Positions 14,298 to 18,947 of a stretch of DNA of 38,970 nt are shown in pieces. A model generated the notes under the pieces. That model was not told where the DNA came from. It saw nothing but the letters and a program-made list of their open reading frames with translations, and did not search any database. The stretch lies in the IMG/VR virus record IMGVR_UViG_3300045988_077187, positions 1-38,970 of that record. One strand, written 5' to 3'. Positions within the stretch are counted from its first letter, which is position 1; every line of letters begins with the position of its first letter. The position numbers were made by a program, and so were the translations under genes. Source of the DNA: a virus.

Positions 14298-14795
14298 ATG
14301 GGCTATTTCCAGATTCCAGTCTCTTGGTATCGGGACGAAACGATGCTGAACCTCATGGACAAGAACCCCGCATCCATAGGCATTTACGTGATGATGATCT
14401 CTTGGTGCTCAGACAACAAAAGTTACGGAGACATACCATACGTAGACTTCCGATATGTCCTCGATGGTGAAGATGAAGAGCTTCAGGCGCTCATAGATGC
14501 AGGACTCATCACGAAGACCGACAAGATTCGTCTGCGCGAACCCGTCTACCACATCAAAAGCTTCAGACGCTTCGACCCGCGATCAAGGGAGCCGATCAGC
14601 AAGAAGCTTCGCAAGGCCGTGTATGAGCGTGACCATTACCGTTGCGTCGAATGTGGAGCCACCGATCATCTGAGCCTTGACCACATCATCCCGTGGAGTC
14701 TTGGCGGCGAGGACACCATGGAGAATCTTCAGACCATGTGCCGTTCATGCAATTCAAGGAAGGGGAACAGGGGCGATGTGGTTCAAGGTGGATGA
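14298..14795 (+). CDS. Replisome-organizer-like N-domain fused to an HNH endonuclease
   Basis: C-terminal HYRCVECGATDHLSLDHIIPWSLGGEDTMENLQTMCRSCNSRKGN. The N-terminus resembles the N-terminus of the next gene. Confidence 0.8.
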   Translation: MGYFQIPVSWYRDETMLNLMDKNPASIGIYVMMISWCSDNKSYGDIPYVDFRYVLDGEDEELQALIDAGLITKTDKIRLREPVYHIKSFRRFDPRSREPISKKLRKAVYERDHYRCVECGATDHLSLDHIIPWSLGGEDTMENLQTMCRSCNSRKGNRGDVVQGG

Positions 14796-16765: not shown

Positions 16766-16905
16766 AGAAAATCCTTGAGGAAATGATCCTGAAATGGCAT
16801 GAGGACGGTATCACCCTGGAAGAAACCGCCAGACTCGTGCCACAAGTGCCAAAAGCCGAAATCACCGCCATAATCCACCAGCACGACAAGGAGACCAGAC
16901 TTTGA
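16762..16905 (+). CDS. 47-aa HTH-like ORF below the track cutoff
   Basis: MKKILEEMILKWHEDGITLEETARLVPQVPKAEITAIIHQH... ATGA overlap upstream and TTGA overlap downstream. Confidence 0.45.
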   Translation: MKKILEEMILKWHEDGITLEETARLVPQVPKAEITAIIHQHDKETRL

Positions 16906-17657
16906 CCGACTGCCAGCACTGCCACAAGCCAATGAAAACGACAGCAGACAATCCGCTCTGCCAAACCTGCCGTGAAACCTACTGGACGCTGATCCGCCAG
17001 CTCGGACACGTCCAACTGCCCGCCCTGCGCAGTATTATGCTCCGTCAGGCGCACATCGGCCCCACAGGCCACACGCCAAACAAAGGCAACGCGCCACTGC
17101 CGATCGACACCCACGCTCAAGACCTCATCGCGGACAGCGAGGCATGGTTGGCGGAACAGGCAGGCAAAATACGCGCCGCATACGCTGGATACGACTGGCG
17201 GAAAGCATGGTTCGCCATCATAAGCAACCGGCACACCGTCCTCAACATGAGCACCGCAGCAGACGACTACGCCGCCCTGGAACACATCACCAGACGCAAC
17301 GAACAAGCGTTGACACCGGAAGACGAGCTCATAATCCTCGGCACCTGCCCAAAATGCGACAGCATGCTCACCGGCACGCCGGAAGCCGAGTCGGTCACAT
17401 GCCAAGGCTGCCACCGTGAATGGGCTGCGCCAGCAATCAAAGCAGCCCGAGACGAAAGATTGTGGCAAGTGCGAATCACCGGCACACCAAGCGATGCGGC
17501 CAAAGAGCTGAAACGATACGGCCTGACCGTATCACGCAACCTCATCAGCCAATGGCTCAAACGCGGCAAACTGTCGCACGCCACGCCGACGGAACACAAG
17601 CGGCAGTACAAGTTCAACCTCGGAGAACTCGCAGCACTACTTGACTGTCACCGTTGA
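16902..17657 (+). CDS. Zinc-ribbon plus C-terminal HTH protein (possible late regulator)
   Basis: CQHC...CQTC and CPKC...CQGC motifs. C-terminal AAKELKRYGLTVSRNLISQWLKRGKL. It is the last gene before the late promoter. Confidence 0.6.
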   Translation: MTDCQHCHKPMKTTADNPLCQTCRETYWTLIRQLGHVQLPALRSIMLRQAHIGPTGHTPNKGNAPLPIDTHAQDLIADSEAWLAEQAGKIRAAYAGYDWRKAWFAIISNRHTVLNMSTAADDYAALEHITRRNEQALTPEDELIILGTCPKCDSMLTGTPEAESVTCQGCHREWAAPAIKAARDERLWQVRITGTPSDAAKELKRYGLTVSRNLISQWLKRGKLSHATPTEHKRQYKFNLGELAALLDCHR

Positions 17658-17668
17658 AATGCTATACT
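17641..17668 (+). promoter_or_regulatory. Sigma-70-like promoter TTGACT-N16-TATACT
   Basis: Read directly from the sequence. It overlaps the end of CDS 16902-17657. Followed by an 11-15-bp leader hairpin (17683-17722) and the tRNA-like gene. Confidence 0.55.
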
Positions 17669-17729
17669 GTCGTATGTTCGTAGAATGAATGGCTCAGCAT
17701 AATGATAGCTGGGCCATTATTCATATCAA

Positions 17730-17889
17730 GCTTCGGTAGCTCAGTGGCAGAGCACGAGGGATAGCACAGATACCTAGGACGGATACCAAACCGGCCATGG
17801 CTTCCTACTTCTTTAAATCGAATGCCCGTAATGATAAAAAGACAGTGCACCCCACACAAGCGCTGGTTCGACTCCAGCCCGAAGCACCA
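17730..17889 (+). ncRNA. 160-nt tRNA-shaped RNA with the anticodon arm replaced by a roughly 100-nt extended arm
   Basis: Acceptor GCTTCGG/CCGAAGC (7 bp). U8 A9. D arm GCTC-AGTGGCA-GAGC. 5-nt variable loop CAAGC. T arm GCTGG-TTCGACT-CCAGC. Discriminator A plus encoded CCA. No 5-bp/7-nt anticodon hairpin exists anywhere in 17755-17861. Confidence 0.75.
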
Positions 17890-17904
17890 CAAGGCGGTGA
17901 TCGT

Positions 17905-18213
17905 ATGCCAGGAAGAACGCGCAAGACCAGCCGCCAATTCGAGAAAGACAAAGCAACATTCTTCGCACAGTGCAAGGCACAGCATGCAGTCTGCTGGTTG
18001 TGTGGCATGCCGATAGACTATGCAGCCACGAAGAACACCACCGATGATTCATTCAATCTTGATCACCTCTATCCCGTCTCGAAGCACCCCGAGTTGCAGT
18101 TCGACCCGGCAGGCTTCAAGCCCTCACACACCAGCTGCAACCGATTGCGCGGCAACCAAGACCCGCCAGCACCAATCGGCACACTAAGCCGACAATGGAT
18201 TCAGACAGCATGA
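17905..18213 (+). CDS. HNH endonuclease (packaging-associated position)
   Basis: CWLCGMPID...NLDHLYPVSKHPEL...SHTSCNRLRGN. Start chosen at MPGRTRK after AAGGCGG. Upstream of TerS/TerL. Confidence 0.85.
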   Translation: MPGRTRKTSRQFEKDKATFFAQCKAQHAVCWLCGMPIDYAATKNTTDDSFNLDHLYPVSKHPELQFDPAGFKPSHTSCNRLRGNQDPPAPIGTLSRQWIQTA

Positions 18214-18491
18214 GCAAGGAGGCAATGATGCCACAGCAGCCAGTCACACTAGAGCTCACCGCCACAATCAGCGACAAGACATTCCCAATCAGCTCATTCA
18301 CCGTCAACATCCCGATCAACGTCACTCACAACGAGGTCAACACCTTCATGGTCGGTGACGCATACACCACACTCATCACGCCCAAGCCACCAAGCACAGA
18401 CGAACTCATCACACGATTCACAAACGCAATCAAAGCATTCAAAACAGCATTCGAAACCAACCCCAAAGGGGTAGGGGCGGTGAAATCCTGA
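18210..18491 (+). CDS. Hypothetical protein
   Basis: The start is uncertain: ATG 18210 has an ATGA overlap, and ATG 18225/18228 follows AAGGAGG. Confidence 0.55.
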   Translation: MSKEAMMPQQPVTLELTATISDKTFPISSFTVNIPINVTHNEVNTFMVGDAYTTLITPKPPSTDELITRFTNAIKAFKTAFETNPKGVGAVKS

Positions 18492-18584
18492 AAACCACCC
18501 CGAACCGACCCACGTCCCGCGTGGTTGCTCTTCCTCTCCCCGATGATGTTTTTTTGTTGATGGGTCGCGCGCGAAGGAGGCTCT

Positions 18585-18947
18585 ATGACGGTCAAGAAGG
18601 GTGTTTCCGAGCGTCGTTTTCCGCATGAGTCCGTGGCTGATGCGTTGGAGAGGTCTTTGCGGAATGCGAAGTCGTTGCGTGCGGAGAATGCGGCTGTCGT
18701 GGCCGCTGCGCGTATCCTTGCCGCTCGGATTGATTCGGTTTGCGAGACTGGTTTCATCGATGAGAACGGGAAATTGGACAATGTGTCGGTTCCGACGTTT
18801 TTGAAATACTGCCAGTCGCTTGGTCTGACGCTGGTGGAGCCTGCCAAGGTTGGGCGTCCAGCGAAGGCGAAGCCTGAGCCGAAGGCCGAGGAGTCAAAGA
18901 GCGGCAAGGTCATCGCGATGGATGAGTTCATGAAGCGTTTCGGCTAG
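18585..18947 (+). CDS. terS: Terminase small subunit (actinophage type)
   Basis: 120 aa, immediately upstream of TerL. Contains FLKYCQSLGLTLVEPAKVGRPAKAKPE with a basic tail. RBS GAAGGAGG. Confidence 0.7.
   Translation: MTVKKGVSERRFPHESVADALERSLRNAKSLRAENAAVVAAARILAARIDSVCETGFIDENGKLDNVSVPTFLKYCQSLGLTLVEPAKVGRPAKAKPEPKAEESKSGKVIAMDEFMKRFG

What the first reader, a model, noticed from the sequence alone, without database searches (positions are those of the whole stretch)
17641..17904. Promoter-driven 160-nt tRNA-shaped RNA whose anticodon arm is replaced by a roughly 100-nt extended arm, at the head of the packaging operon
17730-17889 has a full tRNA top half. It has a 7-bp acceptor stem GCTTCGG/CCGAAGC, U8 and A9, and a D arm GCTC-AGTGGCA-GAGC with A14, G15, G18G19 and A21. 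A26 is present, as is a 5-nt variable loop CAAGC whose C48 can pair with G15. The T arm is GCTGG-TTCGACT-CCAGC with G53-C61, followed by discriminator A and an encoded CCA. Positions 27-43 do not form an anticodon arm. CGAGG (17755-17759) faces CCACA (17852-17856), giving 3 G-C pairs and 2 mismatches. This helix continues as G17760-C17851 and GCAC/GTGC (17764-17767/17845-17848), and it encloses a 77-nt, more AU-rich distal domain. I tested every 17-nt window of 17755-17861 for a 5-bp stem with a 7-nt loop and found none. The distal domain contains GATACC twice, the palindromes CCTAGG, GGCCATGGC and TTTAAA, and an in-frame TAA-TGA-TAA triplet. The insertion is far too short for a group I intron, and pair 3-70 is U-A rather than G-U, so it is not tmRNA-like. 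Upstream lie TTGACT-N16-TATACT (17641-17668) and an 11-15-bp leader hairpin (17683-17722). The HNH/TerS/TerL operon RBS starts immediately after the CCA (ATG at 17905), so RNase P/Z-type processing would define the 5' end of the late mRNA. Possible roles are a tRNA-mimic decoy or anti-defence RNA (against anticodon nucleases or tRNA-sensing systems), a processing or stability handle for late transcripts, or a new kind of interrupted tRNA. I know of no described class matching this architecture.
Basis: partly seen in the sequence, partly recalled or inferred. Interest (0 to 1): 0.85.

Follow-up and report, generated by a model that had tools for sequence, protein, structure and literature searches.

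The report
tRNA-shaped RNA lacking an anticodon
A group of temperate Bifidobacterium phages carries, just ahead of their DNA-packaging genes, a conserved 160-base RNA gene with the top half of a tRNA but a branched ~100-base arm in place of the anticodon arm; it cannot decode, matches no catalogued RNA family, and probably uses the cell's tRNA-processing enzymes to release a stable RNA of unknown function.

Summary
Window 17730-17889 has a perfect 7-bp acceptor stem, D arm, T arm and ACCA. Positions 27-43 are replaced by a ~10-bp helix with a bulged A, leading into a 77-nt domain with two hairpins. It lies between a sigma-70-like promoter plus conserved leader hairpin and the RBS of an HNH-TerS-TerL operon.

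It is not a one-off. I recovered 64 distinct versions from about 150 viral contigs and two genome assemblies, all from Bifidobacterium phages. Among type-A copies the tRNA-like half is about 10 times less diverse than synonymous sites. Arm stems are almost invariant, and arm loops drift at the neutral rate. The T stem and proximal helix each show two compensatory pairs.

It is not a decoding tRNA, and a spliced intron-containing tRNA is unlikely. No single deletion restores a canonical anticodon arm in 0 of 64 copies, against 38 of 63 control phage tRNAs with insertions. It is also not tmRNA, YrlA or any Rfam family.

It is dispensable. A second subtype looks degraded, several copies carry deletions, and more distant relatives have only the leader.

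Best reading: a natural "tRNA scaffold" RNA excised from the late leader by RNase P. Its function is unknown.

The parts
17641..17668 (+). Sigma-70-like promoter, TTGACT-N16-TATACT, with TG before the -10
   Evidence: Found by the promoter scan with 10 of 12 matches. It is conserved among type-A loci (pi 0.075, against 0.27-0.28 at third codon positions). It is also present in type-B and deletion variants.
17683..17722 (+). Leader hairpin (11-15 bp) followed by a U-rich tract; possibly an intrinsic terminator or a 5' leader structure
   Evidence: Present in the MFE fold. The alignment fold gives 11 pairs, all kept, one of them compensatory CG/UA. Relatives without the element also have a promoter plus hairpin upstream of HNH. 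The terminator scan did not call it in this window.
17730..17754 (+). 5' acceptor strand (17730-17736), U8 and A9, D arm (17739-17753) and A26 (17754)
   Evidence: Read directly from the sequence. This is the most conserved block of the locus (pi 0.029 measured over 17730-17755). D-loop variants (AGTGGCA, AGCGGTTA, AACGGCA) keep G18 and G19.
17758..17767 (+). Proximal arm helix, 5' strand: GGGAU, bulged A, GCAC
   Evidence: Two pairs show changes on both sides between subtypes (GC to AU, and AU to GC).
17768..17776 (+). J1, conserved junction strand (AGAUACC..)
   Evidence: pi 0.089. The ATACC motif is kept in both subtypes.
17777..17796 (+). Hairpin Pa: GGACGG, 8-nt loop, CCGGCC, with one internal mismatch
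   Evidence: Stem pi 0.019 and loop pi 0.233. The helix is kept in type B with the mismatch at a different position.
17797..17829 (+). Hairpin Pb: AUGG/CCGU outer pairs, GCUUC/GAAUGC inner pairs, 15-nt loop
   Evidence: The outer stem is 100% paired, with one-sided changes at all 4 pairs. Stem pi is about 0.03 and loop pi is 0.298. Locus L273 has a natural deletion of just the loop. An alternative pairing of CAUGG with J1 CCA cannot be excluded.
17830..17844 (+). J3, A-rich junction strand holding the UAA-UGA-UAA run
   Evidence: pi 0.152. No conserved reading frame lies upstream of the stops.
17845..17853 (+). Proximal arm helix, 3' strand: GUGC, ACCCC
   Evidence: Partner strand of 17758-17767.
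17854..17861 (+). Variable region, 6-9 nt in relatives, ending in C48
   Evidence: The most variable part of the element in sequence and length (pi 0.343). In type-A copies the last base before the T stem is C.
17862..17889 (+). T arm (17862-17878), 3' acceptor strand (17879-17885), discriminator A and CCA (17886-17889)
   Evidence: Two T-stem pairs are compensatory: GCUGG/CCAGC in some copies and GUGGG/CCCAC in others. ACCA is present in 44 of 48 type-A versions.
17891..18213 (+). RBS (AAGGCGG, 17891-17897) and HNH endonuclease gene (17905-18213), first gene of the packaging operon
   Evidence: PHROG 338, E 6e-27. TerS, TerL and portal lie downstream.

Best explanation
The element is a tRNA-derived, non-decoding structured RNA built into the 5' leader of the late (HNH-terminase-structural) transcript of a clade of temperate Bifidobacterium phages.

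**Proposed mechanism.**
1. Transcription starts at the conserved promoter and passes the leader hairpin.
2. The nascent RNA folds into a tRNA top half: acceptor stem, T arm and the D/T elbow.
3. Host RNase P cuts at G1. The 3' end is trimmed to, or maintained at, ACCA.
4. This releases a roughly 160-nt RNA. Its tRNA body acts as a natural "tRNA scaffold" that gives defined ends and nuclease resistance.
5. The same cuts leave the HNH mRNA starting a few bases before its RBS.
6. The arm that replaces the anticodon arm is a helix with a bulged A, leading into a three-way junction with two hairpins. This arm is the specific part, and it is most likely recognised by a protein through its helices and junction rather than by base-pairing through its loops.

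**Shown here.**
- The anatomy of the element.
- Its recurrence in many related phages.
- Purifying selection on the tRNA body and on the arm stems.
- Compensatory changes in the T stem and proximal helix.
- Absence of any anticodon arm.
- Its fixed position in the late leader.
- Its dispensability.

**Inferred only.**
- That the RNA is transcribed and accumulates.
- RNase P and 3' processing.
- Accumulation of the free RNA.
- Protein binding.
- Any effect on the phage or the host.
For: **tRNA top half.** It is complete and nearly invariant. pi is 0.029, against 0.27-0.28 at synonymous positions, among 70 distinct type-A loci.

**Compensatory pairs.** There are two in the T stem and two in the proximal arm helix. 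91.9% of cells are paired, against 29-39% for slid controls.

**Arm conservation pattern.** Stems have pi 0.02-0.03. Loops have pi 0.23-0.30, which is the neutral rate. One locus has lost exactly the Pb loop. This pattern fits a folded RNA read by shape and argues against loop-mediated antisense action. No antisense target in the phage exceeds chance.

**3' end.** ACCA is encoded in 44 of 48 type-A versions, and bacterial RNase P uses an RCCA 3' end (established knowledge).

**Precedents for processing.**
- Engineered RNAs with exactly this design are processed and stabilised in E. coli for inserts up to about 250 nt (PMC3753655). Their design is an acceptor stem plus T and D arms, with the anticodon stem-loop replaced by a hairpin-closed insert.
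- An actinobacterial tRNA-like RNA (M. smegmatis YrlA) is cut by RNase P and receives CCA in vivo (PMC4201824).

**Genomic position.** The element always sits between the leader hairpin and the HNH RBS, with no terminator of its own.

**Not coding.** Database proteins that read through it differ in length and frame.
Against: - There are no expression, end-mapping or processing data.
- The distal domain is not unusually stable (z-scores -0.1 to -1.6). Its fold is not fixed, because CAUGG could pair either with CCRUG or with J1.
- Most arm pairs are invariant, so they say nothing about structure. The sequences are closely related, so low diversity could partly reflect a recent spread of the cassette.
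- Type B has an A7.A66 mismatch and a UCCGACU T loop. It often lacks CCA and shows several deletions.
- Sister lineages and more distant relatives manage without the element, so any function is accessory.
- Late, co-transcribed expression is an odd fit for an anti-defence role.
- The Rfam tRNA model gives no hit even at E up to 10, so the likeness to tRNA is partial.
Confidence: 0.5

Rival explanations
1. Purely cis-acting processing or insulation signal. The tRNA-like fold serves only to recruit RNase P and 3' processing. This detaches the leader hairpin and gives the HNH-terminase mRNA a defined 5' end next to its RBS. The released RNA has no role of its own, and the arm is a tolerated insertion.
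For: - The position is fixed and the CCA lies 1-2 nt from the RBS.
- There is no separate terminator.
- The element travels with the promoter-hairpin cassette.
- The tRNA body is far more conserved than the arm.
Against: - Arm stems and junction strands are as conserved as the tRNA body's helices, while the loops drift. A tolerated insertion should drift throughout.
- Relatives with the same promoter and hairpin but with the element deleted or absent still carry the operon.
Confidence: 0.2
2. Neutral relic. It is a captured phage tRNA gene (its 5' half is identical to that of tRNA-Phe of some Clostridia) that was disrupted by an ~80-100-nt insertion. It is now decaying and appears conserved only because the phages are closely related.
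For: - Type B carries tRNA-incompatible changes and several independent deletions (L177, L183/184, L216/229/235, L287).
- Mosaic recombination junctions fall inside the element (L185, L228 group).
- The element is absent from other lineages.
- Ordinary tRNA-Phe genes share its 5' half and acceptor stem.
Against: - Within the 160-nt type-A element, diversity ranges from 0 in long blocks to about 0.3-0.45 in loops and the variable region. Flanking synonymous sites show 0.27-0.28.
- The T stem and proximal helix show compensatory changes.
- D-loop variants keep G18 and G19.
Confidence: 0.12
3. Intron-containing tRNA. The arm is an intervening sequence that is removed to give a functional tRNA (Ala-like anticodon).
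For: - It calls Thr(AGU) or Ala(AGC) in relatives.
- Short unexplained introns do exist in phage tRNAs (PMC6784885; my scan).
Against: - No single excision restores a canonical anticodon arm in 0 of 64 versions, even allowing one stem mismatch. The figure is 38 of 63 for control insertion-bearing phage tRNAs.
- With relaxed geometry only 6 of 64 give a perfect stem, and the implied anticodons disagree (AGC, UGC, AGU, CGC, GGC).
- The junction length varies between relatives.
- Pair 3-70 is U-A, so AlaRS identity is missing.
- The insert is far shorter than group I introns and has no Rfam ribozyme or intron hit.
- The Rfam tRNA model detects the control intron-bearing tRNAs at 44-52 bits but not this element.
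Confidence: 0.06
4. DNA-level site (cos or packaging site, attachment site, or regulator binding sites) that only looks like a tRNA.
For: [quoted passage not shown]
- The distal domain holds several palindromes.
Against: - In phiSASD1 the cos site lies between HNH and TerS.
- One viral contig starts at window ~18504, in the 18491-18585 gap downstream of HNH. This places cos about 600 bp away from the element.
- Compensatory changes in helices and a complete tRNA top half have no DNA-level rationale.
- The GATACC repeat and the palindromes are not kept in relatives.
Confidence: 0.04
5. Miniature tmRNA-like ribosome-rescue RNA.
For: - The topology is that of tmRNA: a tRNA-like domain whose anticodon arm is replaced by a long helix enclosing another domain.
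- A run of in-frame stop codons is kept in most relatives.
Against: - Pair 3-70 is U-A in all 64 versions except one that has C.A.
- No conserved open frame or tag lies upstream of the stops, and the frame shifts between relatives.
- ARAGORN tmRNA mode and the Rfam tmRNA families give nothing.
- A full D stem is present, unlike tmRNA.
Confidence: 0.02

Closest known systems
Engineered 'tRNA scaffold' RNAs (Ponchon and Dardel; PMC3753655)
   Same: Identical architecture: acceptor stem, T arm and D arm are kept, and the anticodon stem-loop is replaced by a helix-closed insert. In E. coli such chimeras are processed by the tRNA maturation enzymes and shielded from nucleases.
   Different: Those are man-made, and here the design occurs naturally. 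Processing of this RNA in Bifidobacterium is not shown.
Short 'enigmatic' introns in phage tRNA genes (Lak megaphages, PMC6784885; many more found)
   Same: Phage-encoded tRNA-shaped genes with an insertion of tens of bases in the anticodon-arm region and no group I features.
   Different: - Removing the insertion from those genes leaves a perfect canonical tRNA (38 of 63 in my control set, many with the insert after position 28/29). They also score 44-52 bits with the Rfam tRNA model.
- The bifidophage element has no recoverable anticodon arm (0 of 64) and no Rfam tRNA hit.
- Those genes lie in tRNA arrays of large phages. This one is a single gene in a late-operon leader.
tmRNA, including reduced mitochondrial forms
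   Same: A tRNA-like acceptor/T domain with CCA. The anticodon arm is replaced by a long helix that encloses another domain.
   Different: No G3:U70, no tag reading frame, a full D stem, only 160 nt, and no match to tmRNA models.
Bacterial Y RNA YrlA (PMC4201824)
   Same: A non-coding RNA with acceptor-, D- and T-arm mimicry, also found in actinobacteria and their phages. M. smegmatis YrlA is cut by RNase P and gets CCA.
   Different: - The topology is permuted. In YrlA the RNA ends form the Ro-binding stem and the 'acceptor' stem is loop-closed. Here the ends form the acceptor stem and the arm is closed.
- The GNCGAAN0-1G motif is not conserved here.
- There is no Rfam YrlA hit.
- No Ro60 gene was seen among the 20 phage genes scanned.
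Phage T4 stable RNAs 'species 1 and 2' (rnaC, rnaD); RNase P-processed phage regulatory RNAs (P1/P7 C4, P4 CI).
   Same: Small phage RNAs with tRNA-like ends that depend on RNase P for maturation. The function of the T4 RNAs is still unknown.
   Different: No sequence relation was tested, and the genomic context and host are different.

Membership tests
Canonical (decoding) tRNA | 7-bp acceptor stem, D arm and T arm with the conserved elbow nucleotides, discriminator base and CCA | tested here: met
   Read from the sequence. Kept in all type-A versions.
Canonical (decoding) tRNA | 5-bp anticodon stem with a 7-nt loop (U33, anticodon, R37) | tested here: not met
   ARAGORN at default settings finds 0 genes. 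The Rfam tRNA model gives no hit even at E up to 10. Positions 27-43 are replaced by a ~100-nt arm.
Intron-containing tRNA | Removing one contiguous insert restores a canonical anticodon arm, with the same anticodon across relatives | tested here: not met
   0 of 64 under canonical geometry, against 38 of 63 in control phage tRNAs. Under relaxed geometry the implied anticodons are inconsistent.
Intron-containing tRNA | A recognisable intron class or splicing route (group I core, or bulge-helix-bulge) | tested here: not met
   There is no Rfam intron or ribozyme hit. The insert is 73-83 nt as called by ARAGORN. The proximal helix has a single bulged A and not two 3-nt bulges around 4 bp. Actual splicing is not testable with these tools.
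tmRNA | G3:U70 alanine identity pair | tested here: not met
   U3-A70 in 63 of 64 versions and C.A in the other.
tmRNA | Conserved tag reading frame ending in stop codon(s), and a match to tmRNA models | tested here: not met
   Stops are present, but the upstream frame is not conserved. ARAGORN -m and Rfam give nothing.
YrlA / bacterial Y RNA | RNA termini form the Ro60-binding stem, the tRNA-like module is distal, and a Ro60 (TROVE) gene is adjacent | tested here: not met
   The topology is the reverse (compared with PMC4201824). No Rfam hit. No TROVE-like protein among the 20 window genes scanned. The remaining genes were not scanned.
tRNA-scaffolded RNA (functional analogy, not a natural family) | tRNA acceptor, T and D arms kept, with the anticodon stem-loop replaced by an insert closed by a helix | tested here: met
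   compared with the description in PMC3753655.
tRNA-scaffolded RNA (functional analogy) | Cleaved by RNase P, 3'-matured and accumulating as a stable RNA | not testable with these tools
   Needs Northern blots, end mapping and in vitro RNase P assays.
Intrinsic terminator (for the leader hairpin 17683-17722) | G+C-rich hairpin followed directly by a run of U | tested here: inconclusive
   The hairpin is conserved. The window's tail, AUUAUUCA, fails the scan's T-run rule. Many relatives have AUUUUUCA.

The most novel reading that the evidence does not exclude
Phages have independently arrived at the 'tRNA scaffold' trick. The element would be a trans-acting RNA whose tRNA body hijacks host RNase P and CCA maturation to produce a long-lived RNA late in infection. 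Its three-way-junction arm would bind and titrate or recruit a specific host or phage protein, for example a nuclease, a defence sensor or a packaging factor. That would define a new class of tRNA-bodied effector RNAs. It might also link to the much larger, unexplained population of insertion-bearing tRNA genes in gut phages.
Probability: 0.25. Interest if true: 0.8.

Novelty: new variant of a known kind. Interest (0 to 1): 0.6.

Why it matters
If the RNA is made and processed as proposed, it would be a natural case of a tRNA body used only as a processing and stability chassis for another RNA module. That principle is so far known mainly from engineering and, in permuted or specialised form, from YrlA and tmRNA.

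It would give a simple, testable handle on late-gene RNA processing in Bifidobacterium prophages, which are common in the infant and adult gut.

There is also a practical point. Public annotations translate straight through the element, producing false N-terminal extensions of the HNH protein. tRNA finders miss it.

The side observation that many phage tRNA genes carry short structured insertions suggests that tRNA-embedded RNA modules in phages are under-explored.

Tried and rejected
- **Catalogued RNA families.** Rfam at gathering threshold on the whole window, and at E up to 10 on 17600-17950. The only result was a chance Plastid-ycf2 hit on the minus strand.
- **tmRNA.** ARAGORN -m found nothing. 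There is no G3:U70 and no conserved frame.
- **Small peptide or N-terminal extension of HNH.** ORF 17797-18213 is in frame in this window, but relatives have frame-breaking indels and early stops.
- **Spliced tRNA.** The exhaustive single-deletion test failed.
- **Bulge-helix-bulge intron.** The helix has one bulged A and lacks the required geometry.
- **Hammerhead or k-turn reading of GUGAUGA.** The motif is not kept in relatives.
- **cos site inside the element.** Two contigs end inside it, which is about what chance predicts. A better candidate for cos is 18491-18585.
- **Antisense regulator.** No complementary target in the phage exceeds shuffled controls, and the loops are unconstrained.
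- **YrlA or Ro.** The topology is reversed and no Ro gene was seen.
- **Similarity to the sarcin-ricin loop or to CRISPR repeats.** I noted this by eye, but the matching bases are not conserved in relatives.
- **More distant homologues.** I searched by synteny using TerL, an HNH alignment and three look-ups of distant HNH proteins. These relatives have no tRNA-like element at all.
- **Genome-wide scan of species-representative genomes.** Only B. ruminantium and one contig binned as 'Collinsella' carry the element.
- **Thermodynamic stability of the arm.** Not significant.
- **Literature.** I found no description of this element.
Full report
**1. What is in the sequence**

- G17730-G17736 (GCUUCGG) pairs with C17879-C17885 (CCGAAGC).
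- U8 and A9 follow. Then come a D arm GCUC-AGUGGCA-GAGC with G18 and G19, A26, a T arm GCUGG-UUCGACU-CCAGC, discriminator A and CCA (17886-17889).
- Between A26 and the variable region there is no 5-bp/7-nt anticodon arm.
- Instead GGGAU-(A)-GCAC (17758-17767) pairs with GUGC-ACCCC (17845-17853) and encloses 77 nt.
- Upstream lie TTGACT-N16-TATACT (17641-17668) and a 40-nt hairpin (17683-17722).
- Downstream, one or two bases after the CCA, an AAGGCGG ribosome-binding site precedes the ATG at 17905.
- That gene is an HNH endonuclease (PHROG 338, E 6e-27). It is followed by TerS, TerL and portal.
- The window as a whole is laid out like a temperate actinophage or prophage: integrase, RecE/RecT, SSB, RusA, methylase, replication initiator, then the late genes.
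- ARAGORN at default settings and Rfam 15 find no RNA gene anywhere in the window. A permissive Rfam search of 17600-17950 gives only a chance hit on the opposite strand.

**2. It is a family, and which phages carry it**

A 20-nt D-arm probe and a gapped D-arm/T-arm probe recovered the same long element from many IMG/VR contigs. Loci fetched through TerL and HNH homology added more. In total I collected 64 distinct sequence versions, 125-162 nt including the four 3'-tail bases.

Only one GenBank phage record, an unannotated human faecal scaffold, has it. Among one genome per prokaryotic species it appears only in Bifidobacterium ruminantium and in a 21-kb contig binned as Collinsella. Named homologues of the adjacent HNH protein come from B. 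breve, B. pseudocatenulatum and other bifidobacteria. The nearest named phages share at most 37% TerL identity and infect other actinobacteria. The size and gene layout fit the dnaJ2-integrated bifidoprophages described by Mavrich et al. (PMC6109161).

**3. Two subtypes, decay and absence**

The slot upstream of HNH holds one of four things.
- **Type A**, as in the window (48 versions).
- **Type B** (16 versions), about 60% identical to type A. It has an A7.A66 mismatch and a UCCGACU T loop. In 9 of 16 versions the tail is ACUU rather than ACCA.
- **Deletion derivatives.** L177 is reduced to about 77 nt. L183/184 have lost Pb. L216/229/235 have lost almost everything. L075/L287 have lost the T arm.
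- **No element at all.** Some of these loci keep only the last ~12 bases, so recombination junctions fall inside the element.

More distant relatives have a promoter and a hairpin or terminator in front of HNH, but no tRNA and no tRNA-like gene. These include other IMG/VR lineages and prophages of B. panos, B. miconisargentati and B. sp. UTCIF-37. The element is therefore a lineage-specific, dispensable insertion between the leader hairpin and the RBS.

**4. Is it under selection as an RNA?**

Mean pairwise diversity among 70 distinct type-A loci:

| Region | pi |
|---|---|
| Third codon positions of the flanking genes | 0.27-0.28 |
| First and second codon positions | 0.12-0.22 |
| 5' acceptor strand plus D arm | 0.029 |
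| T arm plus 3' acceptor strand | 0.079 |
| Pa stem | 0.019 |
| Pb stems | about 0.03 |
| J1 | 0.089 |
| J3 | 0.152 |
| Pa loop | 0.233 |
| Pb loop | 0.298 |
| Variable region | 0.343 |

Most of the variation in the T arm is the covarying stem. One locus (L273) has lost exactly the Pb loop while keeping the stems.

On a 24-sequence alignment of both subtypes the proposed structure has 91.9% of cells paired, against 29-39% when partners are slid. Four pairs have changes on both sides: two in the T stem and two in the proximal arm helix. The outer Pb helix is 100% paired, with one-sided changes at every position.

There are caveats.
- Most arm pairs never vary.
- The sequences are closely related and recombining.
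- The arm is not unusually stable (z-scores -0.1 to -1.6).
- The MFE fold offers an alternative partner (J1 CCA) for the CAUGG strand.

I regard the cloverleaf top half and the proximal helix as established. The two-hairpin junction is the best current model.

**5. What it is not**

- **Not coding.** The window's ORF 17797-18213 is in frame with HNH. Many database 'HNH' proteins of 129-176 aa are read-throughs of the hairpin and the element. Relatives differ by frame-shifting indels and early stops.
- **Not tmRNA-like.** Pair 3-70 is U-A. There is no conserved frame before the UAA/UGA run. No tmRNA model matches.
- **Not a group I intron or a known ribozyme**.
- **Unlikely to be a spliced tRNA.**
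  - With introns allowed, ARAGORN calls Ala(UGC) in the window. It calls Thr(AGU) or Ala(AGC) in relatives, with odd geometry.
  - I tried every single contiguous deletion. None restores a canonical arm in 0 of 64 versions, even allowing one stem mismatch.
  - With relaxed geometry only 6 of 64 give a perfect stem, and the implied anticodons disagree.
  - The same test on a control set of insertion-bearing phage tRNA genes succeeds in 38 of 63. The Rfam tRNA model scores those controls at 44-52 bits.
- **Not the cos site.**
  - In phiSASD1, HNH sits at the right end of the genome and TerS/TerL at the left, so cos lies between HNH and TerS.
  - One viral contig begins at window ~18504, inside the 18491-18585 gap.
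- **Not an antisense RNA against the phage itself**.

**6. How it most likely works**

The architecture is exactly that of the engineered 'tRNA scaffold'. That design keeps the acceptor stem and the T and D arms, and turns the anticodon stem-loop into a helix-closed insert. Bacteria process and stabilise such chimeras (PMC3753655). An actinobacterial tRNA-like RNA, M. smegmatis YrlA, is cut by RNase P and receives CCA in vivo (PMC4201824).

My proposal runs as follows.
1. The late transcript is cut at G17730 by RNase P and matured at ACCA17889.
2. This releases a stable ~160-nt RNA.
3. It leaves the HNH mRNA starting just before its RBS.
4. The conserved helices, the bulged A and the junction strands, set against free-drifting loops, point to recognition by shape, most simply by a protein.

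The anatomy and the selection pattern are shown. Everything from transcription onwards is inference.

I cannot decide whether the released RNA acts in trans or the processing event itself is the point. The strong constraint on the arm favours the first. Late, co-transcribed expression, the CCA-RBS abutment and the dispensability keep the second alive. Type B looks like a copy under relaxed constraint.

**7. Comparison with known systems, and novelty**

- It works like an engineered tRNA scaffold.
- It resembles tmRNA in topology only.
- It is the circular permutation of YrlA.
- It differs from the 'enigmatic' Lak-phage tRNA introns (PMC6784885) in having no recoverable tRNA.

I found no description of it in Rfam or in the papers searched. 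I class it as a new variant of a known kind (tRNA-derived structured RNAs). It is real and conserved, but confined to one phage clade, accessory, and of unknown function.

**8. Side finding**

I scanned viral contigs for a common D arm followed by a T arm 55-85 nt later. That spacing excludes normal tRNAs and neighbouring tRNA pairs.
- 80 of the 120 hits have a perfect 7-bp acceptor stem.
- Many sit in the tRNA arrays of large gut phages.
- Many carry a 40-56-nt insert after position 28/29. The insert consists of a hairpin followed by an 'ACAGCAA' motif. Its removal leaves perfect tRNAs of many isotypes.
- Others are giant-virus tRNA-Tyr genes with eukaryote-type introns.

Short insertions in phage tRNA genes are therefore far more common than the single Lak-phage report suggests.

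Noticed in passing
L350-L469 (viral contigs), e.g. L468:2477-2591, L354:6304-6422, L354:6456-6572, L354:6751-6877: Many phage tRNA genes carry 30-60-nt insertions. They lie mostly in tRNA arrays of large human-gut phages that also encode tmRNA. A large subgroup has the insert after position 28/29, inside the 5' strand of the anticodon stem. That insert is a closing helix, a hairpin and a conserved 'ACAGCAA' motif. Removing it leaves perfect tRNAs of many isotypes: Asn, Ile, Pro, Arg, Cys, Gly, Val, Lys, Thr and others. Rfam's tRNA model still scores them at 44-52 bits. Only Lak-phage 'enigmatic introns' seem to be described (PMC6784885). The splicing route is unknown.
   Followed up: partly
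window 18491-18585: This G+C-rich non-coding gap between an unassigned ORF (18195-18491) and TerS is the likely cos region. One viral contig (L191) begins at about 18504. In phiSASD1, cos lies between HNH and TerS.
   Followed up: partly
window 17683-18213; proteins P0022, P0045 and about 50 others: Gene callers in public databases extend the HNH ORF upstream through the tRNA-like element and even the leader hairpin. This gives spurious 129-176-aa 'HNH' proteins whose N-termini are translated RNA-gene sequence.
   Followed up: yes
L185, L228, L239, L198, L208, L244, L175, L300, L308, L319 (region upstream of HNH): Mosaic recombination junctions fall inside the element. L185 has a foreign 5' side joined at GGCAGAGCA. 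The L228 group keeps only GCACGAAGCAC.. plus the RBS, behind a divergent leftward gene. The conserved element may serve as a recombination linker between the early and late modules.
   Followed up: partly
L271, L272, L274, L302 and L348 (about 200 nt upstream of HNH): Relatives that lack the element still have a strong promoter followed by one or two hairpins upstream of HNH. One is a textbook terminator, CCCCGGGCGCTTGCGCTTCGGGGTTTTCTT. This suggests that late genes in this phage group are controlled by antitermination. The 251-aa zinc-ribbon/HTH protein (window 16902-17657, PHROG 908) just upstream is a candidate regulator.
   Followed up: no
L252:7345-7487, L253:4162-4308, L256:547-694 (Nonomuraea genomes): The same 16-nt tRNA 5' half (GCTTCGGTAGCTCAG) is followed by about 110 nt and then a T arm whose acceptor strand is not complementary. 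It sits directly after another tRNA. This could be an integration scar or another kind of interrupted tRNA.
   Followed up: no
L273 (upstream of HNH): A natural variant in which exactly the 13-nt loop of hairpin Pb is deleted (CCATGGCTTCCGAATGCCCGTG). The stems are intact.
   Followed up: yes
window 14298-14795: A second HNH endonuclease gene (165 aa, many PHROG HNH hits) lies in the replication module and overlaps the start of the replication-initiator ORF.
   Followed up: no
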